DNA of 64,000 nucleotides, from the sequence record NC_052662.1. One strand, 5' to 3'. Positions 5,909-37,487 of the stretch are shown piece after piece; position 1 is the first letter of the stretch; each line of letters starts with the position of its first letter. This stretch comes from Escherichia phage Mt1B1_P17. The notes beneath the pieces were generated by a model, which searched no databases, was not told where the DNA came from, and saw only the letters and a program-made list of their open reading frames with translations. The translations under genes were made by a program, and so were the position numbers.

Positions 5909-5922
5909 TAAGGAGAAAAACA

Positions 5923-6516: not shown

Positions 6517-6519
6517 GTT

Positions 6520-9814: not shown

Positions 9815-9815
9815 T

Positions 9816-10610
9816 ATGTCCGAGAAAATCAGCCTGAAAAAACGTCAAGAAAACCTTGCTTTCTCTCTGAAAAAGAATAAGAACCTGAATGAAGGTAAGA
9901 TTGTTCTTCGTGTAGCATGTGCTCTAGATATTTCTGGTAGTATGCATGGTCTATATTCTAGTGGGGTAGTGAGTGATTTTGTAGGTAAACTGCTTCCTTT
10001 TGGTATGCTGTTCGACGATAATCAACAAATTGATATGTGGGCCTTCAATACGAGTTCCCAAGAGCTTACTCCAGCAACAGCAGACGTTTACGATGACTAT
10101 GTTGGTAAATGTATGCGTAATGTTCGTATCGGAGGTGGAACAAATTACGCCCCTGTAATGGCAGATATCTACGATGAGTATTTTGGCACTGTTACCAAAT
10201 ATATTACCACTAAACAAGTGGTACAAGAGGAGGCTCCAAAGAAAGGCTTCTTTAATCGTCTGCTTGGTAAAACTGAAACAGTGTCTGTAGAGCGTGAAAA
10301 AGTTGTAGCTGTATCTGAACCAGGTGCTGACGTTACCCCTGGTGTTGTATTCTTCCAGACGGATGGTGAGAATGGTGATCCTAGTGCTGTTCGTCGTCTT
10401 ATTGAAGAGAATAAGAATAAACCTATTTATTGGTTCATGGTTGGCGTTGGTAATGAGAAGTTTGGGTTCCTGAAAGAACTGGCAAATGCTTATGATAATG
10501 TTGGTTTTATTGGCATTAAAGATTTAGACTTGACAGATTCAGAGCTTTATGACAAACTCTTATCTGAAGAGTTCGGAGAGTGGGTTGTTAAAGTAGGTGC
10601 TAAAAAATGA
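9816..10610 (+). CDS. von Willebrand factor A domain protein (TerY-like)
   Basis: MIDAS DISGS, downstream GGGTNYAPV and FFQTDGENGD motifs; N-terminus KISLKK like TerD proteins. Confidence 0.6.
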   Translation: MSEKISLKKRQENLAFSLKKNKNLNEGKIVLRVACALDISGSMHGLYSSGVVSDFVGKLLPFGMLFDDNQQIDMWAFNTSSQELTPATADVYDDYVGKCMRNVRIGGGTNYAPVMADIYDEYFGTVTKYITTKQVVQEEAPKKGFFNRLLGKTETVSVEREKVVAVSEPGADVTPGVVFFQTDGENGDPSAVRRLIEENKNKPIYWFMVGVGNEKFGFLKELANAYDNVGFIGIKDLDLTDSELYDKLLSEEFGEWVVKVGAKK

Positions 10611-18792: not shown

Positions 18793-19587
18793 TTGAGCAA
18801 GTTGAACACACTTGATCAATATTACACTAACCCCGCTTATGCGGGGTTCTTATGTGATAAGATCAAAGAAATTTTTGGAGAGGAAGCTAACTACGTAGAA
18901 CCATCTGCGGGAGAAGGAGCTTTCTCTTCTTGTTTTAAAAACATAACTTCTTTTGATATTGACCCTAAGTTTGAAGATTGTATTGAGGCAGATTTTTTAG
19001 CTCAATCTGTTGAGTCTGTTGGTAGTGTAACTGCTTTTGTCGGTAATCCTCCATTTGGAAAAAATGCTAGTCTTGCCATTAAATTCTTTAACCATTGTGC
19101 TGAAATGCTGGATAACGAAGGTGGTATTTGTTTTATCTTGCCTCGCACATTTCAAAAAATCTTTTTTGCACACAAGCTAAATCCCCATATGCATCTTCTT
19201 TACGAAGAAGAATGTCCAAAAGGATCTTTTATTCTTCATGGAGAACCTTGGGATGTTCCTTGTGTATTCCAGGTATGGATTAAACGCAACGAGAAGCGTT
19301 CTCCCGTTGTTTTAGGAGAGAATCGACTATTCGTATTAGGTAACAGTAAAGACTACGATATAGCCGTTAGGAGAGCGGGAGCAAGTGCAGGTAAAGTGTT
19401 ATCAGAAGAAGATTCTTTATCTGAAGCATCTACCTATTTTTTAAAAGCCTTGACTTCTGATCTTAAAACGCGTATCATTGAGGCTTACCCGTTACTTAAA
19501 GCTGAAGCTAGTAAAACTGCGGGAGTAAGAAGTTTAAGTTTAAAAGAACTTCAGTGGGTTCTGGAGAACATTAGAAAGGAGGAATAG
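18793..19587 (+). CDS. DNA N6-adenine methyltransferase-like protein
   Basis: TTG start after AAGGAGG; SAM-binding-like EPSAGEGAF and catalytic NPPF motif. Confidence 0.5.
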   Translation: MSKLNTLDQYYTNPAYAGFLCDKIKEIFGEEANYVEPSAGEGAFSSCFKNITSFDIDPKFEDCIEADFLAQSVESVGSVTAFVGNPPFGKNASLAIKFFNHCAEMLDNEGGICFILPRTFQKIFFAHKLNPHMHLLYEEECPKGSFILHGEPWDVPCVFQVWIKRNEKRSPVVLGENRLFVLGNSKDYDIAVRRAGASAGKVLSEEDSLSEASTYFLKALTSDLKTRIIEAYPLLKAEASKTAGVRSLSLKELQWVLENIRKEE

Positions 19588-22184
19588 TGAGTAAGTTTAC
19601 ATGGGATATTGAAGCAAACGGATTGTTGAATAATGACACTATTGATTATTTAGCTAGTCCTTATCGTCTCAAAGACACATTTCAAATGCACTGTATTGTC
19701 TTAGAGAACCATGAAACAGGAGAAATAGTAGCTTTCCACGATGGCCCTAAATACATCTTTGATGGGCGTCCTTATGAAGAGTCAGATGGTAAATACACAT
19801 ATGTTCTTAAAGAGTATGTGGCGCAAGATTACACACATTTTCAACTAAAAGATTTCCCAGATTTTATTAATCATGAAGGTTATTTTAAAGACAAGCCTGA
19901 ATATCTGGTTGAAATGGCTGTGGCTCACAACGGTATCAACTACGACTGGTTGGCTACAAAACTGTTTTATGGATTAGATTACAGTGTTAAATATAATACG
20001 TGGGGCAAAAATAAGGTAAAACTTATTGACTCCTTGATTTTGAGTAAAGTGTTAAACCCAGATCGAAAGATTGAGGGCAAATCAGGACATAGCTTGGCAG
20101 CACTTTCTCGAAAAGCAGGTGGTGATGTAAAAATAGATTTCCGTAAAGAGATTCCAGAAGAAGATCGATTTAAGACTTTTGCTGCGGATATGCTTTATTA
20201 CTGTATCTATGACAACAAAGCCAATACGAGCGTATATAATTACCTTATGGAAGAATGGGGTGATTATGATAAATGGGAAGGTCCATTTGAACTTGAACAA
20301 CGTGTAGCAGACATTATTACACGCCAGGAACACCGTGGGTTTGCTTTTAACATGAAACAAGCAGAAGAGAACCTTGCTTTTTTGGATGCAGAAATGGAGC
20401 GTCTTCGTTTACTCGTTGAGCCTATTTTGCCACCTAAACCAGCAACAAAAGGTTATCTTAAGGCTTTTATTCCACCTAAGTTGCAAATTAAAAAGAACTT
20501 AGAGCCAACTAACCATATGATCAATTTTGCTAAGAAACATGATGGTCATTTGGAAGAGAGGGATGGCGATTGGTGGTTAGTTATGTTGGGGAAAGAGTGG
20601 AAACTGCCAGTTGCAGCAGATGAGCCTCTATGTGATCCTAACATTCCTGCAACATTGAACGATACAACCCATATTAAAAACTGGCTTGTAGGATTAGGTT
20701 GGGTACCGTCTGAATATAAAGATAAAGACTTGACTCTTAAATCTGGCACCAAGATTAAAAAGAGCGAGGAAGAACTTCAGAAAGGTATTCGAGCTTACGT
20801 TGAGCAAACCCTATCTTCTAATTTTTGTCAGGATCGTTGTGATCATCTGGAGTGCACACCGGAAACCCTGGAAAGGAAGATTCAAGAGCGTATAGCAAAA
20901 GGTAAAGGTCGCGGTCTTAAAGTATTGACTAACCCGTGTTTTACCAAAGGTCAGGAAAAAGAAATTTGTCCTAACCTGCAAGCTTTGGGTGAGAAGTTTC
21001 CTTATGCTACACAGATTGTAGAATACTTAACGTATAAGCATCGTAGGAACTCTATTTTAGGTGGCGGTGCTGATTGGGAAGAAGATGAAGAAGATCAAGA
21101 ATACGATAAAGGTTTCTTAGCCGCAGTAAGGGCGGATGGGCGTATTCCTACCCCAGCCGCTACATGTGATGCTGCAACCTCTCGTATGAAGCATAGATCT
21201 GTAGCTAATATTCCTCGTGTCACATCTTTGTTTGGATGGGAGATGCGTAACTTGTTTGGTGTAGAGGTTCCTAAATACTTCCAGATCGGCTACGATTTCG
21301 ACTCTTTGGAAGCAAAAATTGAATCACACTACTGTTGGCGGTACGAGCCGGAGCCACACGAATATTGTAACGCTCTGTTGTTAGAGAAACCTAATGATGT
21401 TCACACAATGATGGCAAAACGTATCACTGAAACTATTGGACGTAAATTTGAACGTAGTCCTGCTAAATCTGTTAAGTATGGTATTACCTATGGTGCACAA
21501 GCCGACAAGGTTGCTAAAACAATTGGTAGCGATAAGTTTACAGGTCAATTGGTGTTTGATGCTTTCTGGGAAGCTGCATTCCCATTGGCGCGTCTTAAAG
21601 AACGTTTAAACGATTTCTGGGTTAAGACTGGTAAACAATATGTTTTGGGTATTGACGGTCGTAAGGTTCCTACTCGTTCTGCTCACGCGATTCTTAACTC
21701 TCTATTCCAAAGCGGCGGGGTTATCTGTGCTAAACGTGCAATGGTTATTTATGACGACATGATCGAAGAAGAAGGGCTAAGTGTTGACTTCTTTAAAGAT
21801 GACTGGAAGAATAAAGACTTCGTGCAACAAATGATCGCATATCACGATGAAGCCCAGCTTGAAGTTTCTCGTAACCTTGTAGAATTTAAATGGTTTTCAC
21901 CTGAATCATTAGGTTGGAAGAAAGTAGACGATCCTGAAGAACAAAAGAAAATTGATAAAGAATGCCTTGCTAAAGTTGAAGAATGGAAGCATAATAAGGA
22001 AAAAGAGACGGGACAAATTTGGGCTAACATTCATGAATCTCCCAAAGGTGGATGGTTTACAGCCTATAGTCGGGCAGGTGAACTCGCTGCTTTAGCTGTT
22101 ACTAAGGCTGGAGAATTTTACAATCTTAATGTTCAGCTTACTGCCGGATATGATGTGGGTAACTCCTGGGCATCCTGTCATTGA
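19587..22184 (+). CDS. DNA polymerase, family A, with 3'-5' exonuclease domain
   Basis: GTG start; Exo I-like DIEANG near N-terminus; KYGITYGAQ (motif B-like) and YHDEAQLEV (motif C-like). Confidence 0.75.
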   Translation: MSKFTWDIEANGLLNNDTIDYLASPYRLKDTFQMHCIVLENHETGEIVAFHDGPKYIFDGRPYEESDGKYTYVLKEYVAQDYTHFQLKDFPDFINHEGYFKDKPEYLVEMAVAHNGINYDWLATKLFYGLDYSVKYNTWGKNKVKLIDSLILSKVLNPDRKIEGKSGHSLAALSRKAGGDVKIDFRKEIPEEDRFKTFAADMLYYCIYDNKANTSVYNYLMEEWGDYDKWEGPFELEQRVADIITRQEHRGFAFNMKQAEENLAFLDAEMERLRLLVEPILPPKPATKGYLKAFIPPKLQIKKNLEPTNHMINFAKKHDGHLEERDGDWWLVMLGKEWKLPVAADEPLCDPNIPATLNDTTHIKNWLVGLGWVPSEYKDKDLTLKSGTKIKKSEEELQKGIRAYVEQTLSSNFCQDRCDHLECTPETLERKIQERIAKGKGRGLKVLTNPCFTKGQEKEICPNLQALGEKFPYATQIVEYLTYKHRRNSILGGGADWEEDEEDQEYDKGFLAAVRADGRIPTPAATCDAATSRMKHRSVANIPRVTSLFGWEMRNLFGVEVPKYFQIGYDFDSLEAKIESHYCWRYEPEPHEYCNALLLEKPNDVHTMMAKRITETIGRKFERSPAKSVKYGITYGAQADKVAKTIGSDKFTGQLVFDAFWEAAFPLARLKERLNDFWVKTGKQYVLGIDGRKVPTRSAHAILNSLFQSGGVICAKRAMVIYDDMIEEEGLSVDFFKDDWKNKDFVQQMIAYHDEAQLEVSRNLVEFKWFSPESLGWKKVDDPEEQKKIDKECLAKVEEWKHNKEKETGQIWANIHESPKGGWFTAYSRAGELAALAVTKAGEFYNLNVQLTAGYDVGNSWASCH

Positions 22185-23861: not shown

Positions 23862-24794
23862 ATGTCCGTAATTAATACTGAAACTGATCGTAAAGGCAAA
23901 ACCGTAACTTATGCAACTGGTATCGTAGACTACGTTAAACTGGATAAATTCGCTGAACCTAAAACTTTTCATTGGGAAGGAAAAACGATTGTTTCAACTC
24001 ACCGAGCTTCTCTTGTTCTGAAAGAGAAAGGTGCTAAACCAGATGAGAAAGGTGTTTGGATTTCTCTTGGTGACATTGAACTGAAAGAAGGTTATGAAAA
24101 CCTGCAAGTCAAAGAAGGTGATAATTGGATCACTATTGAAAAAGGTGTAGAAGTAAGTATTGATATTGATCGCGTTGATAATAAAGGCGGTAAAACTTAC
24201 TACAATACTAAAAAATCTCGTATTACAGTATTGTCTACCGATGGTGTTCAGAAGTCTAACAAATCTTCTGGCAATAAAGGTTCCAACGATGCTGCTCCTA
24301 AGCAGTCCTATAAAAAACGTGATACCGTAGGCCTGGAAACTGGTCACGCAGTAAATGGTGCACTGGAACTGATTCGTAATGGTGTTAAAGGCGATGCTTT
24401 CGATATCGCTGGGGTTGTTCAATCTGCAACTGTCACACTGAAATCGGAAATTGCTGAATCTCGTGGCGTTGATATTAATGATTATGATCTTGGGGCGTCT
24501 GTTGGTCACGCTATCCTCAATGCTTGTAAAGACCATACCATTAAGACTGTATCTGTAGAAGATTTGATTGACTCTGCTCGTAAAGTTCTAGCTTTGTCTG
24601 ATAAAGTTGCTGCTGCCATTCGTGGTTCCGTAGAACAACCTAAGAAAGAAGAGAAGAAAGAAGTTAAAAAGCCTGAACCACAACCAGAACCAACTCCAAG
24701 TAATCAAGAAGAACCTCCAATGGACTTCGATGATGATATTCCATTTGCCCCTATTGGACTGCAATATGGTCGAAACTTCCTGCATTGCTTCTAA
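23862..24794 (+). CDS. ssb: Single-stranded DNA-binding protein
   Basis: C-terminal acidic tail DFDDDIPF matching bacterial SSB tip; Pro/Glu/Lys-rich linker before tail. Confidence 0.55.
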   Translation: MSVINTETDRKGKTVTYATGIVDYVKLDKFAEPKTFHWEGKTIVSTHRASLVLKEKGAKPDEKGVWISLGDIELKEGYENLQVKEGDNWITIEKGVEVSIDIDRVDNKGGKTYYNTKKSRITVLSTDGVQKSNKSSGNKGSNDAAPKQSYKKRDTVGLETGHAVNGALELIRNGVKGDAFDIAGVVQSATVTLKSEIAESRGVDINDYDLGASVGHAILNACKDHTIKTVSVEDLIDSARKVLALSDKVAAAIRGSVEQPKKEEKKEVKKPEPQPEPTPSNQEEPPMDFDDDIPFAPIGLQYGRNFLHCF

Positions 24795-25260
24795 GGTTTG
24801 TTTCAAGTGCGGGGTGTTAAAGCCCCTCACTGAATTTTACAAACATAAAGCTATGGCTGACGGTCACGTCAATAAATGCAAAGAATGTAATAAGAAAGAT
24901 GTTAAACAGAATCGTAAAGATAAATCTGAATATTACAAAGAGTATGATAAAAACAGAGATCAGACCCCAGAGCGCAAAGCTTTAAAAGAGGCTTACGCAA
25001 AAGGGAAAGGTAAAGATAAGGCTAATGAAGCTAAGAAACGTTACATCGAAAAGAATCCGAAAAAACGTTCTGCTCATATAGCTGTAGGTAACGCACTACG
25101 AGATGGAAAGTTAATAAAACAACCTTGCCAAGTGTGTGGGTCTGTTGATGTTCATGCTCATCATTGTGATTATGATAAACCGTTAGATGTTCTATGGCTG
25201 TGTCCTCTGCACCATGAAGCTTGGCATCAAGAACATGGGGAAGGGTTGAACGCTGAATAA
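24766..25260 (+). CDS. HNH endonuclease
   Basis: Zinc finger CFKCG...CKEC and HNH core HAHHCDYDKP...WLCPLHHEAWH; start uncertain (may be 24853). Confidence 0.55.
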   Translation: MVETSCIASKVCFKCGVLKPLTEFYKHKAMADGHVNKCKECNKKDVKQNRKDKSEYYKEYDKNRDQTPERKALKEAYAKGKGKDKANEAKKRYIEKNPKKRSAHIAVGNALRDGKLIKQPCQVCGSVDVHAHHCDYDKPLDVLWLCPLHHEAWHQEHGEGLNAE

Positions 25261-25265
25261 AAGAA

Positions 25266-25290
25266 AGGAGCCAAATGGCTCCTTTTCTTA
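25266..25290. terminator. Bidirectional terminator between convergent plus and minus blocks
   Basis: AGGAGCC-AAAT-GGCTCCT hairpin flanked by T-runs on both strands. Confidence 0.55.
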
Positions 25291-27960
25291 TTTATAACCC
25301 GAAGGAATATTGTTATAATCAGAAAGTTTTGTGCAATACCTGAATAGGTAACTATTAGCTACTCCACCTAATGTATTTGTTAATGTTGTTCCTGTTCCTG
25401 TAAGATTTGTGCATCCACTAAAGAAAGAAGATAATGCTCCACGTTTACCACAAACAGTTAACCCTGGGTTGTCATTAAAGATTTTATTAAAATCTGTAAG
25501 TGCTAAACAACCTTGGAATGTAGCTGTTAAAGAGGTCACTTTCGTTGGAATATTATCAAACATTCCTGCTGGAACTTCTGCAAGAGAGGTGCAATCTTTA
25601 AAGGTGTAAGAATATCTTGTAACTTTTGATAGATTCTTAAATAAATCTGAAGGAATAGATGTTAAAGATGTACAACCTTCAAACGTGCTTGACATTGTTG
25701 TCATTGAAGGAAATAAAGTATCACTGAATAATCCTTCAGGGATAGCTGTCAAACTTGTGCAGCCAGAGAAGATACCACTTATAGATGTTCCGGTGTAAGA
25801 TGTGTTACTAAAACAATCAGAAGTTATTCGTCTTAAGTTAGCACAACCTTTTAAGAATTGTGAGGCTGGACTTGTAGAATAACCAATTCTGTTGCCGCCC
25901 CATAATTCTAAAAGATCTGGATTTGCTTCCATAGACACATCAACACTATTCACTACTGAAGCACTTGCAAATTCAATAGCCAGTCTATATTCTCCTGCTG
26001 GATAACTATCCACTGTAGAGAAAGCTTTATTTCTAAATATTACTTTATTTGAAGGTATTACAACGTCATCCACCTTAACTACAAAGTTAGCTGGTGTGAC
26101 AGTACCCGATAAAATTGGGAACGTAATTGCCCCATCTGCCGAGTGGTTGAAATATCCGTTTAGAACCGTTAAACTACTACTCGGAGATGGAGCTAACTCC
26201 TTTCCCGCAACAGCATTCACCGTTAAATAAGAACTATCGGAAGCGGTAACAACACCTTGATACGTAGCTGTGCAACCAATCCTACAACCACCATCACCAA
26301 CACCAGTTATTACACCAGTTGTAGGATCTACTGTAGCAACACTAGGATCTGTAGTTGTATATTCAACAACCATGCCAGGTAAGCTTGCTGCCCCTGTTGG
26401 CGTTATTTCTGCTACCATTGTTTGTGTTGTTCCTACATCCATCGCAGATAAGCTAGGAGTGTAAACGCTCAATGTTGAAGCATATCCTCCAGAGGTATCT
26501 GATAAAGTTGTTCCTTCAGCGTTTAAGGCTGTCATACCTGCATCAAAACCACCTTCTGCATGGAAAGTCATTAAACCAGTAGATGATATTGTCATGTTTG
26601 CAGGGGCAGAAGAAGTGTATTTAATATTGAAAAGTTTACCTCCTTCTGGGCTAACAGAATGTGTCAACTGTTTAGTTCCACCTACAATACAAATTCCTAA
26701 AGAATCTGTAGTTAAGCCAGTTGCCAGAATATCACCCGTAATCACGGAGCTTGCTATTGGTGTGAATTTATTATAGTTTAGACCACTATTGAACAGATAA
26801 GAGGCTTTCCCATCTTTCCAAATACCGGAATAATACATATCTCCATTATAAACGAAAAAGGTTCCTTGATAACCTAATTGGTTAGTAATATCCATATTCA
26901 GCGTATGAACGCTTGTGAGCTTGTTTATATCCCAGGAACCCACTCCTTCAGGTTTAACTGGTTTTCCCACTTGGAGTGGATCTCCGCTCGCAGAATCATA
27001 CCCCAAACCTAAGTTTGCAGTATAGTTCTTACCAATAGCCCACAAGGAATTATTGATCCCAACGAAAAAAGAGTGGCGGCTTGGTGGAAATTTCCATGTT
27101 GAGAAACCTGCTGCAAAGGTATCCAGTTTAGTGTAGGTTGTTTCTGTATTAGACCTGACATATAAGTAGTTTACCGTGCCCGTACCACCGGAGGTATCTC
27201 CTACAACTATTGTCTGGGAAACTGTATTGATGTAATCTTTGACATACACTGTTTCAGTAGTGGATATCGTGGCATTGACAAAAGCGGTTGTTGTGTTATT
27301 ATTACCTGCTAAACCTTTACTGGCTCCACAAACACGCAAGGTTCCCACATTGTTGACATAAGAGCATTGGTTGTAACCTGCATCAAAAGCAATTGCTGCA
27401 CTTGTTATCTGACGAGGAGTAGAAACCTCGTTAGTAGTACTTGCACCTAAACTACCTACTGTGTTTTGACCTGATCCATAAAGAACACCACTATTCATTA
27501 ACCAGAGAGTGTTGTTATATCCTCCCTTAACCTCTTTAAGATTGGCTAAAGAGATAGTCCCTGTTATTACAGATGGAAAGCTGGTCCAAGTAGTTACACA
27601 TGCGTCCGTACCACCTGCTGCTATAGATCCTACCAATCCTGCTGTCAATCCTGAATATTGCCATCCCCCACTGTTAGTTTTAATAACAAAACAACGATCT
27701 GCGGTAAACACATCCGCTACTACAGTAGAAGCTAAGTGGAAATTATTGAATCGTGCACTACGAGTTCCATCTGCAATCTCACCAAAAAGGTTTGCGCCTT
27801 GAGTAAACAATCTACCATCATTAAGCAAAATTGCTAAACTGCTGTTAGAATTACCAGCATTATCTGGGTAATCTAAAGTGATTACTTTTTTAACAATACC
27901 TGCTGGCAGAGGAACGACACCAGTGCTGGTCATAATAGTAAATATTGGAATTGGAAACAT
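25288..27960 (-). CDS. Tail fibre/adhesin with RCC1-like repeats, Big_2-like domain and C-terminal BspA-type leucine-rich repeats
   Basis: Repeats such as NSGVLYGSGQNTVGSLG; Ig-like segment; C-terminal repeats CTSLTAIP / CTSLTSIP / CTSLAEVP. Confidence 0.55.
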   Translation of the reverse strand: MFPIPIFTIMTSTGVVPLPAGIVKKVITLDYPDNAGNSNSSLAILLNDGRLFTQGANLFGEIADGTRSARFNNFHLASTVVADVFTADRCFVIKTNSGGWQYSGLTAGLVGSIAAGGTDACVTTWTSFPSVITGTISLANLKEVKGGYNNTLWLMNSGVLYGSGQNTVGSLGASTTNEVSTPRQITSAAIAFDAGYNQCSYVNNVGTLRVCGASKGLAGNNNTTTAFVNATISTTETVYVKDYINTVSQTIVVGDTSGGTGTVNYLYVRSNTETTYTKLDTFAAGFSTWKFPPSRHSFFVGINNSLWAIGKNYTANLGLGYDSASGDPLQVGKPVKPEGVGSWDINKLTSVHTLNMDITNQLGYQGTFFVYNGDMYYSGIWKDGKASYLFNSGLNYNKFTPIASSVITGDILATGLTTDSLGICIVGGTKQLTHSVSPEGGKLFNIKYTSSAPANMTISSTGLMTFHAEGGFDAGMTALNAEGTTLSDTSGGYASTLSVYTPSLSAMDVGTTQTMVAEITPTGAASLPGMVVEYTTTDPSVATVDPTTGVITGVGDGGCRIGCTATYQGVVTASDSSYLTVNAVAGKELAPSPSSSLTVLNGYFNHSADGAITFPILSGTVTPANFVVKVDDVVIPSNKVIFRNKAFSTVDSYPAGEYRLAIEFASASVVNSVDVSMEANPDLLELWGGNRIGYSTSPASQFLKGCANLRRITSDCFSNTSYTGTSISGIFSGCTSLTAIPEGLFSDTLFPSMTTMSSTFEGCTSLTSIPSDLFKNLSKVTRYSYTFKDCTSLAEVPAGMFDNIPTKVTSLTATFQGCLALTDFNKIFNDNPGLTVCGKRGALSSFFSGCTNLTGTGTTLTNTLGGVANSYLFRYCTKLSDYNNIPSGYK

Positions 27961-27974
27961 TTAAACCCTCCATA

Positions 27975-27997
27975 AAAAGAAAGCCCCTTTCGGGGCT
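27975..27997 (-). terminator. Rho-independent terminator-like hairpin
   Basis: AAGCCCC-GAAA-GGGGCTT on minus strand followed by TCTTTTTAT. Confidence 0.5.
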
Positions 27998-28001
27998 TCT
28001 G

Positions 28002-30026
28002 TTATCGTGTTACAACAACCATGTCCACGATATCACCCACACCAGGATACGTTAATTGCAAAATTGTTACTGCGTTAGCAGTAGTTGCTATTTCTGTATC
28101 ATTTAGTGCTCCATAAGACGCATCTAGTGTAACCGTGTGTCCCGTTGTATCTTGAATCAAATAAATCATTGCTGAAAACGCTTTAGGTTTTGTAGAGCCA
28201 GTGACACCAGGCCATGCTCCAACTGTCAGAGCGTCAGTTACTGTAACAACATACATATTGGAAGTTCCAGAAGGAGTCCAAGATGCTCCAGAGTTGGCAG
28301 TAGTTGTTTCAAGTTCCATGAAACCTGCTGTAACTTTAGTTGGTGTTATAGCTTCCGTAGGATCTGATCCTGATATTTCGATCCAGTTTCCATCAGAACG
28401 ACCATACGTCAAGCCGTCTTGAGGGGCTTCTGGTATACTAGGAAGAGTTCCTATAAGCGTCCACGTAGAAGAATCTGTTTTCTTAAACACTGCTCCAGTG
28501 GTAGTATTGAAGGCGTAATCATTGATAACACCGTCTCCTGCGACTGGATTAGTTGTTGCTACAAACCACTGTGCGCCGTCCTTACCGTTGGTCCCATCAG
28601 TACCGTTGGTTCCGTTTGTTCCAGGATCACCCTTATCTCCTTTATCCCCTTTTTCACCTTTGTCGCCTTTAATACTTCCCATGTCAACAAAAGATGCGGA
28701 ATTGGTGTCTTGATCGTAGGTATAGATGTAAAGATTACTAGTGTCTTCAGTTAAGTAAGCATCACCATAGTTATTGTAAACAGGGAGAGCTTCACTGTTC
28801 GGAACATGACCTTTAGCTGTAATTGATGTTCCTCCAAGACTGCCAACATTCATCCATTCCGTAGCATCTTGGACCCAAACATACAAATCATTATTAATTT
28901 TATATGCATCACCTACTTCTCCAGTCGGAGGAAGTTCAGCTTCGCTGTTCAGAACCCCGATAATCTCTAAGCCTGATCCTGTTGCACCAACTGGTCCTTG
29001 TGGACCTAATTCACCTTGTGGACCTTGCTCTCCTTGATCACCCTTGTCTCCTTTTGGACCTTTAAGCGAGGCAATGAAATCTACTTCTGTCCCTTCATTA
29101 CCAGCATCCAGCCAACTTTGATATGCAGATTTCCCTTCATCTCCATCTGTTCCATCTAGACCGTCTTTACCTGCCTCACCTTGTGGACCTTGAGGACCAA
29201 CAATATTACCCATGTTGACCCAAGCTGTCCCATTGGAGACATAAAGATTACCATTGATAGAATAAGCTTGGCTTACGTTTTCAGAGTTAGGTTGTGGTAA
29301 GTTACTTGTAGAAGGCAAATCCCCACGATAATCAAAACCGTTGGCGTTAACACCAGGTGCTCCCTGTGGCCCTGTAGGACCAACATCGCCTTTATCACCT
29401 TTTATAGAGGTAAGAAAATCATAAACAGATCCTGTATTACCATCTGCCAACCATACCTCGTAAGCTGATTTACCTTCTGGCCCAAGAGAAGAAATAAGTT
29501 TCCAAACAGAACCATCCCAAGCGTAGATTACATCACCTACGATATAACCATCCCCTGCAACGTTACCTGTAGATGGTAGTTCACTAGTGCTTGCTAATGA
29601 TCCTTTAATATTAAGTTGAGCACCAGTGTCCCCTTTCAAAGAAGCAAGCCATTGTGCTTCTGTTCCAACAAAACCATTATCAAGTGCGATCTGATAAGCC
29701 GATTTACCAGCTTCAGGTATTGTTTCCGACAGATCATCAATCTGTTGCTGCATTGCCGTAAACTTGGCATTGATAATTGCTATATCATCGGCGGTCCCAA
29801 CACTTTGCCATGCAAGGGAAGAAATACCACCTGTGGTGGCTGGCGTAGAGTTTGCTGGAACTACTTTAGGAAAAGTTCCTTTCCATTGGTAATAATTCCC
29901 TTCTGCTGCTAACAGCAAAACTTCACGGGAATTACGTAATGTAAAACCTGCCTCAAAGCTGCGACGTTTTCGATAAGTAGCTTCTACCAGATCGGCTATC
30001 GCACTATTAGGTCTTGTTAAATTCAT
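28002..30026 (-). CDS. Collagen-like repeat tail fibre protein
   Basis: Multiple G-X-Y runs such as GPKGDKGDQGEQGPQGELGPQGPVGATG and GDKGEKGDKGDKGDPG. Confidence 0.55.
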   Translation of the reverse strand: MNLTRPNSAIADLVEATYRKRRSFEAGFTLRNSREVLLLAAEGNYYQWKGTFPKVVPANSTPATTGGISSLAWQSVGTADDIAIINAKFTAMQQQIDDLSETIPEAGKSAYQIALDNGFVGTEAQWLASLKGDTGAQLNIKGSLASTSELPSTGNVAGDGYIVGDVIYAWDGSVWKLISSLGPEGKSAYEVWLADGNTGSVYDFLTSIKGDKGDVGPTGPQGAPGVNANGFDYRGDLPSTSNLPQPNSENVSQAYSINGNLYVSNGTAWVNMGNIVGPQGPQGEAGKDGLDGTDGDEGKSAYQSWLDAGNEGTEVDFIASLKGPKGDKGDQGEQGPQGELGPQGPVGATGSGLEIIGVLNSEAELPPTGEVGDAYKINNDLYVWVQDATEWMNVGSLGGTSITAKGHVPNSEALPVYNNYGDAYLTEDTSNLYIYTYDQDTNSASFVDMGSIKGDKGEKGDKGDKGDPGTNGTNGTDGTNGKDGAQWFVATTNPVAGDGVINDYAFNTTTGAVFKKTDSSTWTLIGTLPSIPEAPQDGLTYGRSDGNWIEISGSDPTEAITPTKVTAGFMELETTTANSGASWTPSGTSNMYVVTVTDALTVGAWPGVTGSTKPKAFSAMIYLIQDTTGHTVTLDASYGALNDTEIATTANAVTILQLTYPGVGDIVDMVVVTR

Positions 30027-30062
30027 TTATCTCTCCTATCATTAGACCATTCTATTGGAAGA

Positions 30063-30080
30063 AGAGGGGGAAATCCCCCT
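30063..30080. repeat. Palindromic GC hairpin element, copy 2
   Basis: GAGGGGGA-AA-TCCCCCTC between fibre genes; matches 11742..11761. Confidence 0.5.
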
Positions 30081-30088
30081 CTATTCCA

Positions 30089-33000
30089 TTAGGTTGTTGG
30101 CACATCTACTACTGGCGTTGGGCGAATAACCGCAGTATTACCTACAGAAACATTACTGGAATCATTAGGTATGGTTTTAATTCTAACTCCAGCACTTGTA
30201 GGCGTTACAATTGGATCTGCAATGTCTATTTTAACTGGGTTAGTCCACGTATCATTATCTTGATAAGGTGCACGAGTAATAACTGTGTCCAAATCTGCTC
30301 CACCTACGCCAGCACCAGGAATACGGATACGTGTCCCTGCTGACAGAGGGTAATGATACAACCAAGAAGCATTTGTTGCTGTCCCGTTAGGAGTCAAGTT
30401 CTGTGTCAGGAAGGTATCTCCTGCCTGTGTAGCTCGAATACCGAAAGCTGGGATATCTGGAATATATGCCCCACTTGTTGTTACAAGGAAGAACGTATTA
30501 TCCGCCTTGACTATCATATCACCTTTGTCAAACTCTTTCCCTGTTGGGAAATGCATTCCATCAATGTTTCGACTAGGATTAGGCTCTAAGTAATAAACTT
30601 TGCCAGTTGTTCCTACAATAGCTCCAATACCACCTGCGATATTGGTATACATATTAGCTTCAACATTACAGTTGACACGATGAATATCCGAGTAACGGCA
30701 ACGGCTCCACTGTGGACGACCAGTAACCATCGTCTTGCCATCTGGGTAACAGTTTACGTTAACCATTTCAAGAACAGATTTTTCTCTACGGAAGAATCCA
30801 TCATAAAATGTCCCTGGACCAGATTCAGGTTGACCAACACAATCGAAGATATTACAGGTGATGTTAGACATTGAAAGCCAAGAAGCTATACCGAACAACT
30901 GCAATGCAGCGCAACGAATATTTTCAAAGCTAACTCTGTTTTCATAACCTGGCCCAGCGGAAACTCCTGCAAAAACACGCCCAGTTTTGGTGTGAATATT
31001 ACGAACAGAATAGTTAAAGCATGGGTTTGAAGGTCTACCCTGTGCCGGAACTACCGGATTACCCTCTTCGTCCAGAACTGCGTTAGTTCCCCACTCCAAA
31101 TAAATCATACGGATATTACTTGCAAGTGTGCTACCGTCTGTTTTAGGCTCTCCGTAAACACCGTCAATCGTAAAATCTTTACTTCCATACATTACAACTG
31201 CGCCAGTTGCCAAACCTGTCCCAACAGATACGGTTTGATCTGGATCGCCATGAATGTTTTCGATAGAGATATTACGACCAACTTCTACGTGGACAATCTG
31301 ACGACAACGTTTTGCAAAAACGTTACGAATTGTAATATTCTTGCAATATTGATCATCAGGGATTCCGTAACCATATGGTCCTTTACCAGCTACACCGATA
31401 CCGATACCCCAGTTGGACAGAGGAATAGGAGCGTTAGTCCCATCGATATTAGACAGGTAAATATTCTCAATCACACAACCATCGTCATAATGTTTATTGA
31501 TGACGTTCAGTTCTATTGCATCACCTTGCATGTCCATGAAGGTAAGGTTACGGAAGACACCACGTGTTACTGGTTCCCCTGTTCCTTGTTGAAGGATGCC
31601 ATACAACCCGTTTTTAAAAGTACAGTTATCAATTTCAAAAGTACCTGATATTGGGTTGCCTTGGAATACCAAGCTACCAACTTGACCTGGGCGAGGAGCA
31701 CCGTCCCACAAACAATCGAACATGCGCACAGCACCACCCCAATACATAACACGAGAGTTACGGAAAGTTGTGCCTTCTACTGTAGCATTCTGCACACGAT
31801 AGTCGCGTTGACCACGGAACACACCACCACGCAAAGTGATATCTTGAATATCAAAAGAGCTTGTCGTGAAAGTCATATCGCAACCGTAAGCATCGAGAAT
31901 CTTACTTTTCGAAGCTTTTGCTGCTAACAGTGCCGCCTGGAAAGCTGCTTCTGGTGTGGTATAGGTAGTTTTATTGTTAGCAAATTCTGACAAGTAGACA
32001 ACATCGAATAAATCGTTGTATGTTCCACCACGAGGGGTTAACAGTCCTTCTGTATTGGTCAGAACCCATGCGTTTGGACCTAATCCACCGCTTGTCTCTA
32101 ATGTGTCAGAGGCCAAAATACTTTTTGGTAAACTTCCAGCCCAACGATAACGACCAGCACCACGTCCAATCGTCTGATTTTTAGCTGTCAGAGTTACATT
32201 ATTACCAAAGCTTGTAGGCAAATGGACAAACTGTCCACGTTCAACAGCTAGTGCAGAAAGATCTACAGACCCTCCAGAATAAGTCATTACTCCAGAAACA
32301 GACAAAGATGTTAAAGTTCCTGTGATGTTAGGAGGTAATGTGTAGGAAGACTGTGCTACCGGATCATACAGAGCTTTAATCCCTGTTAACGATTGACCTG
32401 CTGTTGCGTAAGCCACCTCATTATCTAACAAACCATATTTACGAGCAATAGTTTGCAGAGGGACTTTATCCATGCTTTCTGTTAGTTCTTCCGTTTTTGT
32501 TTCTAAACTAACAAGACGGTTCTCTAGATTAGGATCTGTATCTGCTGAAGCTACGATTTTACCAATATAAGCAAAAAGCTTGTTTGGCAGTCCTGTTGCA
32601 GGATCGTGTCCCAAAGGTTCAGATAAGATGATCTTACTATCTTCTATACGGAAAGCTTCCCCCAGAACCTGAATAACACCATTGATCGTAACAATAGCAC
32701 TATCAAAGATGTAAGGAGGACTGATTACTGTTTCATAACCAGTTGCACCAGAATATACCCAAGGTGTGACTTCTGTTGCCAATTGTTCTGTCTTCAATCC
32801 CCACAATACCCAGTTGTTATCTCCTACTGGAGTACCTTGCATAGGGATTGGGTTTACCAATGTAGCATTAGGAGCATAATAATAACCGCTCAATACCCCA
32901 TTCTGAAAATAACGTAGTTGGTTAAAAACCGTTTCATTTGTGCCTTGCGCCCAATCCAATGGGCTTTTAAAGAAAAAGTTATCAACAAGGGCTTTTCTCA

Positions 33001-33142
33001 GGGTTGGTATCAACCCTGATTCTGTCTCAATACTTTCTGTCGCACTTCCATTAATAACATCATGAAGTTGATTGGACGAGAAAATAACCAGATCTACGCC
33101 CTGTTCAAGAGACGTTGCTGGATACGTTGGGAATGTTGCCAT
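30089..33142 (-). CDS. Large tail spike/fibre protein, probable parallel beta-helix
   Basis: 1017 aa; repetitive N/G/T-rich beta-strand segments typical of beta-helix spikes. Confidence 0.45.
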   Translation of the reverse strand: MATFPTYPATSLEQGVDLVIFSSNQLHDVINGSATESIETESGLIPTLRKALVDNFFFKSPLDWAQGTNETVFNQLRYFQNGVLSGYYYAPNATLVNPIPMQGTPVGDNNWVLWGLKTEQLATEVTPWVYSGATGYETVISPPYIFDSAIVTINGVIQVLGEAFRIEDSKIILSEPLGHDPATGLPNKLFAYIGKIVASADTDPNLENRLVSLETKTEELTESMDKVPLQTIARKYGLLDNEVAYATAGQSLTGIKALYDPVAQSSYTLPPNITGTLTSLSVSGVMTYSGGSVDLSALAVERGQFVHLPTSFGNNVTLTAKNQTIGRGAGRYRWAGSLPKSILASDTLETSGGLGPNAWVLTNTEGLLTPRGGTYNDLFDVVYLSEFANNKTTYTTPEAAFQAALLAAKASKSKILDAYGCDMTFTTSSFDIQDITLRGGVFRGQRDYRVQNATVEGTTFRNSRVMYWGGAVRMFDCLWDGAPRPGQVGSLVFQGNPISGTFEIDNCTFKNGLYGILQQGTGEPVTRGVFRNLTFMDMQGDAIELNVINKHYDDGCVIENIYLSNIDGTNAPIPLSNWGIGIGVAGKGPYGYGIPDDQYCKNITIRNVFAKRCRQIVHVEVGRNISIENIHGDPDQTVSVGTGLATGAVVMYGSKDFTIDGVYGEPKTDGSTLASNIRMIYLEWGTNAVLDEEGNPVVPAQGRPSNPCFNYSVRNIHTKTGRVFAGVSAGPGYENRVSFENIRCAALQLFGIASWLSMSNITCNIFDCVGQPESGPGTFYDGFFRREKSVLEMVNVNCYPDGKTMVTGRPQWSRCRYSDIHRVNCNVEANMYTNIAGGIGAIVGTTGKVYYLEPNPSRNIDGMHFPTGKEFDKGDMIVKADNTFFLVTTSGAYIPDIPAFGIRATQAGDTFLTQNLTPNGTATNASWLYHYPLSAGTRIRIPGAGVGGADLDTVITRAPYQDNDTWTNPVKIDIADPIVTPTSAGVRIKTIPNDSSNVSVGNTAVIRPTPVVDVPTT

Positions 33143-33145
33143 TAA

Positions 33146-33481
33146 TTACCCCTTATTCTGTGTACGTTTAACTATGTCATCTAGCATCATTTGGATAGTC
33201 GCATTCTTGAGGTCCATAATCTTTTCAATTTTTTGCTCAAGAGTGTTATTATTTGCCATTAATGTAGAGTTAATTTGATTTAGCATCTGGGTAAGTTCGG
33301 CTTTAGTTGCATAAGTTGATTCAACAAAGACCAACTTCTTCTCTAGCTCTCGACTTTTCTCCTCCATTTCCTCAAGATCAGAGCCGAATTTATCCATTTT
33401 TTGTTTGAAAAAGAACCAGATGACTCCGATTAAAGGGATTATTGCATCCTTTGCAAGTCCCCATGCTTCTTGAAATTCCAT
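33146..33481 (-). CDS. Membrane-anchored coiled-coil protein
   Basis: Hydrophobic segment AIIPLIGVIWFFF then charged helical region; function unclear. Confidence 0.35.
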   Translation of the reverse strand: MEFQEAWGLAKDAIIPLIGVIWFFFKQKMDKFGSDLEEMEEKSRELEKKLVFVESTYATKAELTQMLNQINSTLMANNNTLEQKIEKIMDLKNATIQMMLDDIVKRTQNKG

Positions 33482-33490
33482 AATGATCCC

Positions 33491-34036
33491 TTATTCCGTT
33501 GGTAATGTAGGCCAATCTATAGTGTAAGGATAGTCTTTTTGAAGCGGAACACGGTTTAGTTTAACCACATAAACTTGAAGATTTTTAAGATAAGCTAATT
33601 CATCTTCAGTAGCCATTTCTAAATCTTTAGCATACTGTAAAGGTGTTATAAGTGCTACCGCTGTTTCTTGTAAAGAGCGAATTTTTGCACTAGCTTGTGT
33701 CATCAACTCTTCACGGGAATACTCTTTATCCTTAAGAGTCAAAGTTTCTAAATCCAGAACCTTGTTTCTAATATCCTCAAAAGTGTCTATATTAAAGTCC
33801 ACTTGTGCTATAGAAAGATCTTCAGGGCAAAGTAATGTAGGATCAGTGTTCCAAAACACAATACGATTTTGATCGTCAAAAACGACTTTCATTTTATCGT
33901 TATTGAATTCTGTGCTACGTAAATCATACCAATCGTAACCTTGATCGCAACGAAGAAAAAGAATGTTCTCTACTTCTACCAATTCTTTTAGTTCGGGATC
34001 TTCGGGAATATATCTTTTAAAATTTGTAAATATCAT
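33491..34036 (-). CDS. Hypothetical protein (possible fibre assembly factor)
   Basis: ORF, 181 aa; position between fibre genes. Confidence 0.35.
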   Translation of the reverse strand: MIFTNFKRYIPEDPELKELVEVENILFLRCDQGYDWYDLRSTEFNNDKMKVVFDDQNRIVFWNTDPTLLCPEDLSIAQVDFNIDTFEDIRNKVLDLETLTLKDKEYSREELMTQASAKIRSLQETAVALITPLQYAKDLEMATEDELAYLKNLQVYVVKLNRVPLQKDYPYTIDWPTLPTE

Positions 34037-37227: not shown

Positions 37228-37487
37228 TAGTCATCCTCTTTGGTAGATTGTGATCTGCCCCAGCGTAAATCAATAAGATTTTTCATGAGGCGAGAAGGGG
37301 TTATCATGAAAACAAAAGCCCAACCCATCCATTCAGGAATTTCTTTTTCTATTCCTAAAAAGATAAACATGCCCGTCATAACCGACATGCCTACAGCGTT
37401 CCAGACTTTTGTAGAGCTTACCCCGTTGCCAGGGTAAGTGCAGAACATTCCGCGAATAAATTTTTTAAAACCACTTTCTTTAGGCAT
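37227..37487 (-). CDS. Small membrane protein
   Basis: 86 aa with hydrophobic helix VMTGMFIFLGI. Confidence 0.3.
   Translation of the reverse strand: MPKESGFKKFIRGMFCTYPGNGVSSTKVWNAVGMSVMTGMFIFLGIEKEIPEWMGWAFVFMITPSRLMKNLIDLRWGRSQSTKEDD

What the first reader, a model, noticed from the sequence alone, without database searches (positions are those of the whole stretch)
25288..30026. Modular receptor-binding fibres: RCC1-like/Big_2/BspA-LRR adhesin and a collagen-repeat fibre
The 890-aa protein combines beta-propeller-like repeats, an Ig-like domain and C-terminal BspA-type leucine-rich repeats (CTSLT.IP units) more typical of bacterial surface adhesins. The adjacent 674-aa protein has long collagen G-X-Y runs. 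Together with the 1017-aa beta-helix spike this gives three distinct host-recognition modules, pointing to a complex or switchable host range.
Basis: partly seen in the sequence, partly recalled or inferred. Interest (0 to 1): 0.45.

Follow-up and report, generated by a model that had tools for sequence, protein, structure and literature searches.

The report
Modular phage adhesin and collagen fibre
These are the last two genes of the tail-fibre operon of a well-known broad-host-range E. coli phage group (phAPEC8-like): a conserved collagen-like fibre, then a propeller/Ig/leucine-rich-repeat adhesin whose tip is swapped as a cassette between related phages; this is ordinary in kind but poorly described in detail.

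Summary
The window is a Phapecoctavirus (phAPEC8-like myovirus), about 98% identical to dozens of GenBank phages. Both ORFs exist exactly as reported, and the domain calls hold.

- two Big_2 Ig domains;
- a beta-sandwich;

The LRR's sequence relatives are BspA/LRR_5 and DUF285 proteins, although the protein itself falls below Pfam cut-offs.

**674-aa protein.** It has a Tail_spike_N anchor, four short G-X-Y runs (6-11 triplets) alternating with ~50-aa knobs, a T4-foldon homologue, and a phiTE-gp241-type distal domain.

**New here.**
- The last 306 aa of the 890-aa protein are an exchangeable cassette. Relatives keep a near-identical scaffold but carry an unrelated tip at a fixed junction, and the scaffold and cassette phylogenies disagree.
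- A short N-terminal peptide, M(F/Y)PIP, is near-invariant.
- The gene always follows a fibre that ends in the phiTE_241_C domain.

"Complex host range" is already established for this phage group. I found no switching element in the 9 kb scanned around these genes. The 890-aa protein is probably a monomeric accessory adhesin, not a fibre. Interest is moderate.

The parts
25288..27960 (-). Gene for the 890-aa modular adhesin ('TfpM1' in PMC12695924), the last gene of the tail-fibre operon
   Evidence: ORF. Full-length match to phrog_11922 'tail protein'. 98-99% identical orthologues are annotated as tail protein or hypothetical protein.
27913..27960 (-). Conserved N-terminal peptide MFPIPIFTIMTSTGVV (aa 1-16), proposed as a docking peptide
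   Evidence: M1, P3 and P5 are conserved in at least 90% of 43 family members. The peptide is kept whether a propeller or an Ig domain follows. pLDDT is below 50 in the monomer model. The docking role is inferred.
26761..27903 (-). RCC1-like beta-propeller (aa ~20-400)
26209..26730 (-). Two Big_2 Ig-like domains (aa 411-584), ending at the recombination junction ...SDSSYLTVNAV
25891..26208 (-). Beta-sandwich domain (aa ~585-690), the first part of exchangeable cassette A
   Evidence: The AF2 model has strands at model residues 12-101. Nucleotide similarity to allele-B phages stops at window position 26210.
25291..25863 (-). BspA/DUF285-related LRR solenoid of seven repeats (aa ~700-890), proposed receptor-binding tip
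27980..27999 (-). Terminator-like hairpin with a T run between the 674-aa and 890-aa genes, followed by GGAGG 7 nt before the ATG
   Evidence: A role in attenuation is inferred.
25263..25286 (.). Bidirectional terminator-like hairpin that closes the fibre operon against the convergent endonuclease ORF
28002..30026 (-). Gene for the 674-aa collagen-like fibre ('TfpM2', orthologue of phi92 gp151)
   Evidence: ORF. Full-length match to phrog_15437 'tail fiber protein'. 60% identical and colinear with the EmilieFrey orthologue. phi92 gene_151 matches the C-terminal domain.
29796..29993 (-). Tail_spike_N (CBA120 TSP1/gp66 N-terminal) domain, aa 12-77; proposed anchor
   Evidence: PF18668 at 70.5 bits against a cut-off of 25. 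PDB matches to CBA120 TSP1/3/4 and Sf11 gp13.
28569..29717 (-). Shaft (aa 104-486): four G-X-Y runs of 6-11 triplets alternating with 'GKSAY' linkers and four to five ~50-aa knob modules
   Evidence: Nucleotide repeats D1 and D2.
28371..28436 (-). Foldon-like trimerisation motif IPEAPQDGLTYGRSDGNWIEIS (aa 531-552)
   Evidence: Aligns with the T4 fibritin foldon [22 protein letters not shown], with matches to many foldon-containing PDB chains. Fibritin_C hit in the EmilieFrey orthologue.
28014..28358 (-). Distal domain (aa 557-671) of the phiTE gp241 C-terminal type
   Evidence: PDB 9cuy_g residues 683-790, E=2.7e-11. phrog_4549 positions 751-868 of 869. PF26209 is on record for the orthologue in L008. 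Present in 390 phage records.
30089..33142 (-). Neighbouring gene for the 1017-aa colanidase-type beta-helix spike (orthologue of phi92 gp150), with a phiTE_241_N-type N-terminus and TSP N-domains
   Evidence: PDB 6e0v E=1.5e-78; CBA120 TSP N-domains match residues 226-366. phrog_6117 and phrog_4549. PF26208, PF18668 and PF27800 are on record for the 1017-aa orthologue in L003 (97.7% nucleotide identity across the region).

Best explanation
**Identity.** The two genes end the lateral tail-fibre operon of a Phapecoctavirus.

**The 674-aa protein.** It is a conserved trimeric fibre. It has an N-terminal Tail_spike_N anchor, a shaft of short collagen triple-helix segments alternating with small knobs, a foldon-like clamp that registers the trimer, and a distal domain of the phiTE-gp241 C-terminal type.

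**The 890-aa protein.** It is an accessory adhesin built of fold types that are typically monomeric. In order, it has a near-invariant N-terminal peptide M(F/Y)PIP, an RCC1-like propeller, two Big_2 spacer domains, and an exchangeable C-terminal binding cassette. In this phage the cassette is a beta-sandwich plus a seven-repeat BspA/DUF285-type LRR.

**How it works (inferred).** The concave LRR face probably binds a host surface component reversibly. This adds one more specificity to a multivalent adsorption apparatus. Lineages change that specificity by recombining whole cassettes at the fixed junction after ...SYLxVNAV.

**Shown.** The domain identities, the cassette exchange, the conserved peptide and the conserved gene order.

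**Inferred.** Virion incorporation; the receptor-binding role of the LRR; docking of the N-terminal peptide onto the distal domain of the upstream fibre; and lower expression through the hairpin between the two genes.
For: **Identity of the phage and operon.**

**Folds.**

**Family of the LRR.**

**Cassette exchange.**
- Window vs ESCO37: residues 1-584 are 98% identical and the remainder is unrelated.
- Allele A is present in 34 phage records and allele B in about 39 records at 90% identity or more.
- Incongruent phylogenies: window vs Wec188, N-terminal part 81% and cassette 91.5%; ESCO37 vs Wec179, N-terminal part 77.9% and cassette 98.7%.
- Several N-terminal lineages each carry two or more cassette types: LRR_5-like, DUF285 'FNQDI', 'GNGWYR', other, or none.
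- Allele B is homologous to the C-terminal part of Shigella phage Sf11 distal-tail protein gp17, which that paper describes as an appendage projecting from the tail, and to the RcGTA head-spike fibre (PMC12724387). So this position holds peripheral modules; that they bind host structures is my inference.

**N-terminal peptide.** Conserved with or without the propeller and disordered in the monomer model.

**Gene order.** The order [fibre ending in phiTE_241_C] then [MxPIP protein] is kept in 11 genomes or contigs across Phapecoctavirus, the proposed genus 'Wecvirus', Justusliebigvirus, Vequintavirus and metagenomic relatives.

**Fibre anatomy.**

**Host-range context.** AV125 and AV126 carry allele A and had the broadest host range in their collection (PMC10844046). 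Wecvirus phages with allele A depend on yhaH, and those with allele B depend on flhD (PMC12548472).
Against: - I found no virion mass-spectrometry or density assignment for either protein. The 2026 phi92 cryo-EM study could not place gp150 or gp151 and does not discuss gp152 or gp153 (PMC13450770).
- The protein appears dispensable. phi92 carries a split version truncated before the cassette. A Logan contig has a 3.5-kb in-frame deletion that removes most of both genes.
- The yhaH/flhD correlation is confounded. The two Wecvirus groups also differ in TfpL (74% identity) and in the presence of a 688-aa fibre gene. YhaH is also an inner-membrane protein, so it is not an obvious receptor.
- The LRR does not reach any curated family cut-off by itself.
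Confidence: 0.65

Rival explanations
1. The 890-aa protein is a virion decoration or environment-adherence protein, comparable to Hoc-like Ig proteins that bind mucus or non-host glycans. On this reading its variable tip tunes adherence to the habitat rather than host recognition.
For: - Big_2 domains match PHROGs annotated as head structural proteins or major tail proteins with Ig domains: phrog_215, 28902, 341 and 41.
- Allele B resembles the RcGTA head-spike fibre.
- The gene seems dispensable.
Against: - The gene is always the last gene of the baseplate/lateral-fibre operon and directly follows a fibre gene.
- The full-length PHROG is annotated 'tail protein'.
- Cassette turnover between closely related phages is the usual signature of host-receptor adaptation.
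Confidence: 0.15
2. The 890-aa protein is itself a homotrimeric tail fibre, attached directly to the baseplate like the other fibres.
For: - It is annotated as a tail protein or lateral tail fibre protein in relatives.
- Its position in the fibre operon fits.
Against: - Every domain found (seven-blade-type propeller, Ig, beta-sandwich, LRR) is a fold type that is typically monomeric.
- No domain search returned a coiled coil, a beta-helix, a foldon or an intramolecular chaperone.
- The only shared N-terminal element is a peptide of about 16 residues.
- By contrast, the neighbouring 674-aa protein shows clear trimer features: collagen repeats and a foldon.
Confidence: 0.1
3. The 890-aa gene is a non-structural, moron-like addition that is expressed separately, for example acting on the infected cell's surface, and is not part of the particle.
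For: - A terminator-like hairpin precedes the gene, which has its own strong ribosome-binding site.
- A sporadic endonuclease gene lies next to it.
- Cassette GC is lower: 0.365 against 0.406 for the scaffold.
- The gene is dispensable in phi92 and in L003.
Against: - No signal peptide or lipobox is evident at the conserved N-terminus, by reading the sequences; no predictor was run.
- The gene sits on the same strand and in the same position in genera that diverged to about 35-45% identity.
- Allele B is a tail- or head-fibre module in solved virion structures.
Confidence: 0.07

Closest known systems
Multivalent adsorption apparatus of phi92, rV5 and phAPEC8-like myoviruses (Stephanstirmvirinae and Vequintavirinae): phi92 gp150, gp151 and gp152/153; rV5-type last lateral tail-fibre gene
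   Same: - The genes are orthologous and in the same order. The 1017-aa protein corresponds to gp150 (crystal structure 6e0v, E=1.5e-78).
- The 674-aa protein corresponds to gp151.
- The 890-aa protein shares its N-terminal peptide and two Ig domains with gp152 and with the EmilieFrey 942-aa protein, and its peptide and propeller with the Vequintavirus 1875-aa protein.
- Broad host range through several co-expressed fibres is documented (PMC8594841, PMC10844046).
   Different: - Phapecoctavirus inserts an RCC1-like propeller and, in this allele, ends in an LRR cassette.
- phi92 has a split copy truncated before the cassette.
- Neither gp150 nor gp151 has been placed in the cryo-EM density (PMC13450770).
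Branched tailspike complexes of Ackermannviridae (CBA120 TSP1-4)
   Same: The Tail_spike_N (PF18668) domain is present at the N-terminus of the 674-aa fibre and inside the 1017-aa spike, with PDB matches to TSP1, TSP3 and TSP4. This suggests receptor-binding proteins that attach to one another.
   Different: - The partners here are a collagen-like fibre and a probably monomeric adhesin, not four beta-helix spikes.
- No interaction was tested.
Pectobacterium phage phiTE long tail fibre (gp241; PDB 9CUY chain g)
   Same: The N-terminal (PF26208/phrog_4549) and C-terminal (PF26209) domains of that fibre both occur here.
   Different: Here the two domains are split between two proteins. The N-domain is on the colanidase spike and the C-domain is at the tip of the collagen fibre.
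BspA-like and PARCEL/DUF285 leucine-rich-repeat surface proteins of bacteria (Pfam PF13306, PF03382; TIGR02167)
   Same: - Repeat length of about 26-29 residues with an F..C.sL..IP..LF pattern.
- LRR fold.
- Significant homologues are family members.
   Different: - There are only seven repeats, fused to a phage scaffold.
- The protein scores below every curated cut-off.
- The ligand is unknown.
Tip adhesins and carbohydrate-binding appendages of other phages (T2/S16 gp38 on gp37; 'evolved' distal tail proteins such as Sf11 gp17)
   Same: - These work in a similar way: a non-trimeric binding module, encoded next to a fibre or baseplate protein, that carries the variable specificity.
- Allele B is homologous to the C-terminal part of Sf11 gp17.
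   Different: - There is no sequence relationship to gp38.
- The attachment mode here is only inferred.

Membership tests
BspA-type LRR (Pfam LRR_5 PF13306) / DUF285-PARCEL (PF03382, TIGR02167) | Score at or above the curated family cut-off | tested here: not met
   LRR_5 17.6 bits against 27.7; DUF285 15.4 (13.5 for the full-length protein) against 25; TIGR02167 17.4 against 30.
BspA-type LRR (Pfam LRR_5 PF13306) / DUF285-PARCEL (PF03382, TIGR02167) | Tandem repeats of ~23-28 residues with conserved Phe/Cys/Leu positions | tested here: met
   Seven units at residues 706, 734, 763, 790, 818, 850 and 876, spaced 26-32 residues apart. The family consensus is F..C.SLTSIP..LF.
BspA-type LRR (Pfam LRR_5 PF13306) / DUF285-PARCEL (PF03382, TIGR02167) | Curved LRR solenoid fold | tested here: met
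BspA-type LRR (Pfam LRR_5 PF13306) / DUF285-PARCEL (PF03382, TIGR02167) | Significant sequence homology to recognised members | tested here: met
   212 homologues at E<=1e-3. Of the 80 aligned, 27 match LRR_5 and 23 match DUF285.
RCC1-like beta-propeller | RCC1 repeat or RLD profile match | tested here: met
   PF00415 scores 24.1 bits against a cut-off of 21.7. PF25390 has E=7e-11 but is below its 150-bit cut-off. PF25390 is on record for nearly all of the orthologues.
RCC1-like beta-propeller | RCC1-type propeller fold | tested here: met
RCC1-like beta-propeller | Guanine-nucleotide-exchange or chromatin function | not tested
   This function is irrelevant in a phage structural context. The PHROG label 'regulator of chromosome condensation' is a fold name only.
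Bacterial Ig-like domain group 2 (Big_2) | Profile match above the cut-off | tested here: met
Collagen-like phage tail fibre | Uninterrupted G-X-Y runs matching the Collagen profile | tested here: met
   PF01391 scores 46.2 bits against 27.2. There are four runs of 6, 8, 10 and 11 triplets.
Collagen-like phage tail fibre | Adjacent trimerisation or registration domain | tested here: met
   Foldon-like motif at residues 531-552, aligned with the T4 fibritin foldon. Fibritin_C hit in the orthologue.
Collagen-like phage tail fibre | Actual triple-helix and trimer formation | not testable with these tools
   This needs a multimer prediction or biophysical measurement.
Ackermannviridae-type branched RBP complex | Tail_spike_N (PF18668) anchor domain | tested here: met
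   70.5 bits in the 674-aa protein and 37.6 bits in the 1017-aa protein, against a cut-off of 25.
Ackermannviridae-type branched RBP complex | Physical attachment of one RBP to another | not testable with these tools
   There is only indirect support, from the conserved gene order.
Programmed host-range switch (invertible tail-fibre segment or diversity-generating retroelement) | Inverted repeats flanking alternative C-termini, an invertase, or a template repeat with a reverse transcriptase | tested here: not met
   Positions 24500-33500 contain only weak inverted repeats of 20-24 nt at 75-80% complementarity. None of the neighbouring ORFs scanned matched an invertase or reverse-transcriptase family, and relatives' annotations list none; no dedicated search for either enzyme was run.

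The most novel reading that the evidence does not exclude
The 890-aa protein is a monomeric 'plug-in' adhesin. Its near-invariant M(F/Y)PIP peptide docks onto the phiTE_241_C distal domain of the trimeric collagen fibre encoded just upstream, giving a branched fibre with the order spike, collagen fibre, adhesin. Its tip cassette (BspA-type LRR, DUF285 LRR or RcGTA-spike-like module) is exchanged between genera, possibly helped by the sporadic endonuclease gene next to the cassette. If this is right, it would supply a composition for fibre densities still unassigned in phi92-like phages, and a portable docking tag for engineering host range.
Probability: 0.2. Interest if true: 0.55.

Novelty: new member of a known kind. 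Interest (0 to 1): 0.38.

Why it matters
Phapecoctaviruses are popular phage-therapy candidates because of their very broad host range (PMC10844046). Yet which fibre does what is still open, even after the 2026 phi92 cryo-EM study (PMC13450770).

This analysis has three practical consequences:
- It turns a gene usually labelled 'hypothetical protein' or 'tail protein' into a defined scaffold-plus-cassette adhesin with a precise recombination junction.
- It shows that natural phages already carry at least four alternative tips on the same scaffold.
- It yields testable predictions: cassette swaps, N-terminal peptide docking, and the LRR ligand.

An LRR of the BspA/PARCEL type used as a coliphage receptor-binding tip was not described in any paper my searches of the held library returned.

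The general principle, modular receptor-binding proteins with C-terminal exchange in multi-fibre phages, is well established.

Tried and rejected
**Searches that did not settle the question**
- Direct family assignment of the LRR with Pfam and NCBIfam gave only sub-threshold hits. The question was settled by homologues and fold instead.
- Pfam finds nothing for allele B. A PDB sequence search did.

**Literature that led nowhere**
- I looked for virion proteomics of Phapecoctavirus and found none.
- The rV5 proteomics paper and its supplements do not mention the last fibre gene under the names I searched.
- The original phi92 paper is not held in the library.
- A search for BspA or LRR in phage receptor-binding proteins returned no papers. 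A search for DUF285 with phage and tail returned nothing relevant.

**Ideas considered and rejected**
- I tried to link the cassette to a receptor through the Wecvirus mutants (flhD vs yhaH). The link is confounded by two other differences in the fibre locus.
- I considered a programmed switch and rejected it, because the region has no suitable repeats and none of the ORFs scanned matched a relevant enzyme family.
- I considered that the P0001 fusion protein was an assembly artefact and think this unlikely. The junction shares only about 9-10 nt of imperfect homology, and the flanks align colinearly at 98-99%.
- Rfam finds nothing in the region.
Full report
**Where we are.** The window is a phAPEC8-like myovirus (genus Phapecoctavirus, subfamily Stephanstirmvirinae). 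Region 25288-33142 is 96-98.5% identical over its full length to about 25 GenBank phage records, including ECO340P2, EF1-1, AV125 and ESCO5. It is 98-99% identical over the upper 88% to about 38 more records. In the annotated relative EF1-1 the three genes are called tail protein, tail fiber protein and tail spike protein. They close a minus-strand baseplate and fibre operon that converges on the replication genes.

**Checking the observation.** The ORFs are exactly as reported: 890 aa, 674 aa and, next door, 1017 aa.

For the 890-aa protein, Pfam gives an RCC1 repeat and Big_2 above their cut-offs, and the RCC1-like domain at E=7e-11. I predicted the two halves separately, each with a homologue alignment.

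The LRR part by itself stays below the curated cut-offs for LRR_5, DUF285 and TIGR02167. It does have seven C-x-x-L units spaced 26-32 residues apart. Its phmmer homologues (212 at E<=1e-3) include a protein named 'BspA family leucine-rich repeat surface protein'. Of 80 aligned homologues, 27 match LRR_5 and 23 match DUF285. In an exhaustive search, residues 700-890 hit proteins of 2,000-7,400 aa with 10-21 matched stretches each.

The 674-aa protein passes the Collagen profile. Its G-X-Y runs are short, however: 6, 8, 10 and 11 triplets.

**Anatomy of the 674-aa fibre.**
- Residues 12-77 are a Tail_spike_N domain, matching CBA120 TSP1/3/4 and Sf11 gp13.
- Residues 104-486 alternate 'GKSAY...LKG' linkers, collagen runs and four to five ~50-aa knob modules.
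- Residues 531-552, IPEAPQDGLTYGRSDGNWIEIS, align with the T4 fibritin foldon [22 protein letters not shown]. The EmilieFrey orthologue gives a Fibritin_C hit.
- Residues 557-671 match the C-terminus of the phiTE putative tail fibre in the baseplate structure 9CUY at E=2.7e-11 (PMC11972413). This domain (PF26209 on record for relatives) occurs in 390 phage records, including phi92 gene 151 and rV5-like fibres.

The whole protein is colinear and 60% identical with the Justusliebigvirus orthologue. It is a conserved fibre, not a variable one.

**The 890-aa protein is a scaffold plus an exchangeable cassette.** About 38 of the related phages match the query only from nucleotide 923 onward. Comparison with ESCO37 shows why: residues 1-584 are 98% identical and the last ~306 residues are unrelated. 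The break falls right after ...SDSSYLTVNAV.

- Allele A (LRR) is present at 90% identity or more in 34 records.
- Allele B ('GNGWYRV' module) is present at 90% or more in about 39 records, and at about 63% in phi92-like phages.
- Allele B is homologous to the C-terminal part of the Sf11 distal tail protein gp17 (E=2e-20), a part that paper describes as a large appendage of unknown function projecting from the tail. It is also homologous to the RcGTA head-spike fibre (E=3e-14) (PMC12724387).

Scaffold and cassette histories disagree.

| Pair | Scaffold (residues 1-584) identity | Cassette (residue 585 to end) identity |
|---|---|---|
| window vs Wec188 | 81% | 91.5% |
| ESCO37 vs Wec179 | 77.9% | 98.7% |

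So cassettes moved between genera after the scaffolds diverged.

Wider homologues show further tips on the same scaffold:
- a classical DUF285 'FNQDISxWDxSNVT' LRR (P0125, P0128, P0164, P0285, P0287);
- an unrelated 250-aa tail (P0124);
- no tail at all (564-573-aa forms).

Some members also lack the propeller (EmilieFrey 942 aa, P0160, P0164, P0202, P0207).

What never changes is the N-terminal peptide M(F/Y/L)P(I/F)P and the Ig pair. M1, P3 and P5 are conserved in at least 90% of sequences. In the monomer model this peptide is the only long low-confidence segment (residues 1-15).

**Context.** In every genome or contig I examined, the gene directly follows the fibre that ends in the phiTE_241_C-type domain:
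- the window, EF1-1, ESCO37, Wec179 and Wec188;
- EmilieFrey;
- phi92, where gp151 is followed by gp152 plus gp153, a split copy truncated before the cassette;
- three metagenomic relatives;
- an rV5-like Vequintavirus, where the protein is 1875 aa and starts MLPIPLL followed by a propeller.

Between the two genes in the window lies a G+C-rich hairpin with a T run. It is followed by GGAGG 7 nt before the ATG. A bidirectional hairpin closes the operon.

The 1017-aa neighbour combines three parts:
- a phiTE_241_N-type N-terminus (phrog_4549 positions 153-261; PF26208 on record for the 1017-aa orthologue in L003);
- CBA120-type TSP N-domains at residues 226-366;
- the phi92 gp150 colanidase beta-helix (6e0v, E=1.5e-78).

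The locus further encodes 157-, 958-, 687- and 353-aa fibre proteins and a chaperone. There are therefore at least seven fibre-type genes rather than three.

**Most likely mechanism.**

Shown:
- the folds;
- the cassette exchange at a fixed junction;
- the conserved N-terminal peptide;
- the conserved gene order;
- the trimer features of the 674-aa protein, contrasted with the purely monomer-type folds of the 890-aa protein.

Inferred:
- The 674-aa protein is a trimeric collagen-like fibre anchored through Tail_spike_N, as in branched tailspike complexes.
- The 890-aa protein is an accessory adhesin that joins the particle through its N-terminal peptide, plausibly on the distal domain of the upstream fibre.
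- It presents an exchangeable binding module, here an LRR, to the cell surface.
- This adds a reversible-binding specificity to an already multivalent apparatus.
- The hairpin may lower its expression relative to the fibre.

**Experimental context from the literature.**
- AV125 and AV126 carry allele A and had the broadest host range in their collection, infecting 84 and 65 of 198 ESBL/AmpC E. coli strains (PMC10844046).
- Wecvirus phages with allele A (Wec188, Wec190) lose infectivity on a yhaH mutant. Those with allele B (Wec179, Wec181, Wec186) lose it on an flhD mutant. All need waaT (PMC12548472).
- The two groups also differ in TfpL (74% identity) and in the presence of a 688-aa fibre gene. 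The cassette is therefore only one of three candidate determinants.

**Evidence against, and limits.**
- I found no proteomic or density evidence that places either protein in the virion.
- The 2026 phi92 cryo-EM paper leaves fibre II unidentified and could not fit gp150 or gp151 (PMC13450770).
- The protein is dispensable in some backgrounds. phi92 has a broken copy. A Logan contig (L003) carries a 3.5-kb deletion (window 26260-29790) that fuses residues 1-73 of the fibre in frame to residues 568-890 of the adhesin, across the microhomology CAA.GTGTTG.
- Oligomeric state and docking were not computed.

**'Switchable' host range.** I found no sign of a programmed switch. The 9 kb around the genes has only short, weak inverted repeats. 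None of the neighbouring ORFs scanned matched an invertase or reverse-transcriptase family; I ran no dedicated search for either. Rfam finds no RNA family in the region. The variability is between lineages, through recombination.

**Comparison and novelty.** The system is a member of the known multi-fibre adsorption apparatus of phi92, rV5 and phAPEC8-like phages. C-terminal exchange in receptor-binding proteins is a familiar theme.

Four points were not described in the papers I could search:
- the domain-level architecture of this protein;
- the BspA/DUF285-type LRR tip;
- the precise junction and cross-genus cassette exchange (PMC12695924 speaks only of slight C-terminal differences);
- the near-invariant N-terminal peptide and its linkage to the phiTE_241_C fibre.

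I rate the finding as a new member of a known kind, of moderate interest.

Noticed in passing
window 24730-25260 (+): A 176-aa ORF matches phrog_2340 'endonuclease' (E=1e-48; HNH/EndoVII-like), with no Pfam hit. It is sporadic: only 5 of 70 related phage records cover at least 80% of window 24650-25300, and it is absent from EF1-1, ESCO37 and L003. It ends 27 nt from the stop codon of the adhesin gene, right next to the exchangeable cassette. It could be a homing endonuclease that promotes co-conversion of the cassette, but this is speculative.
   Followed up: partly
L003 (Logan SRR10359460 contig) 8705-9895; corresponds to window 26260-29790 deleted: A natural 3.5-kb in-frame deletion fuses aa 1-73 of the collagen fibre (most of its Tail_spike_N anchor domain) directly to aa 568-890 of the adhesin (the end of Ig domain 2, the beta-sandwich and the LRR). 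The junction has the microhomology CAA.GTGTTG. The result is a 396-aa 'mini-fibre' (P0001).
   Followed up: partly
window 19587-22184 (+) vs L003 12518-15850 and L001 7471-10803: The family-A DNA polymerase is 865 aa in the window but 1110 aa in L003 and EF1-1. About 730 nt inside the gene (L003 13372-14101) have no counterpart in the window. This suggests an insertion (intein- or intron-like, or an extra domain) in the relatives.
   Followed up: no
L011 (phi92) 5403-7065: In the phi92 reference genome the orthologue of the adhesin gene is split into gp152 (202 aa: peptide plus two Ig domains, ending prematurely) and gp153 (295 aa, no RBS). It lacks the C-terminal module B present in EmilieFrey, so it is apparently a degenerate copy.
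   Followed up: partly
L005 (phiWec179) vs L006 (phiWec188) fibre loci; window 37480-39543: The 687/688-aa fibre-locus gene (phrog_6040) present in the window and in phiWec188 is absent from phiWec179. The long fibre protein TfpL is only 74% identical between the two phages, while the neighbouring proteins are 95-100% identical.
   Followed up: partly
window 62212-63650 (-): A cluster of nine tRNA genes.
   Followed up: no
L008 11414-12091 and L009 10252-10890: Two metagenomic relatives carry a gene with a Gad2 (PF26128) hit a few genes downstream of the fibre operon, among the replication genes. No counterpart was looked for in the window.
   Followed up: no
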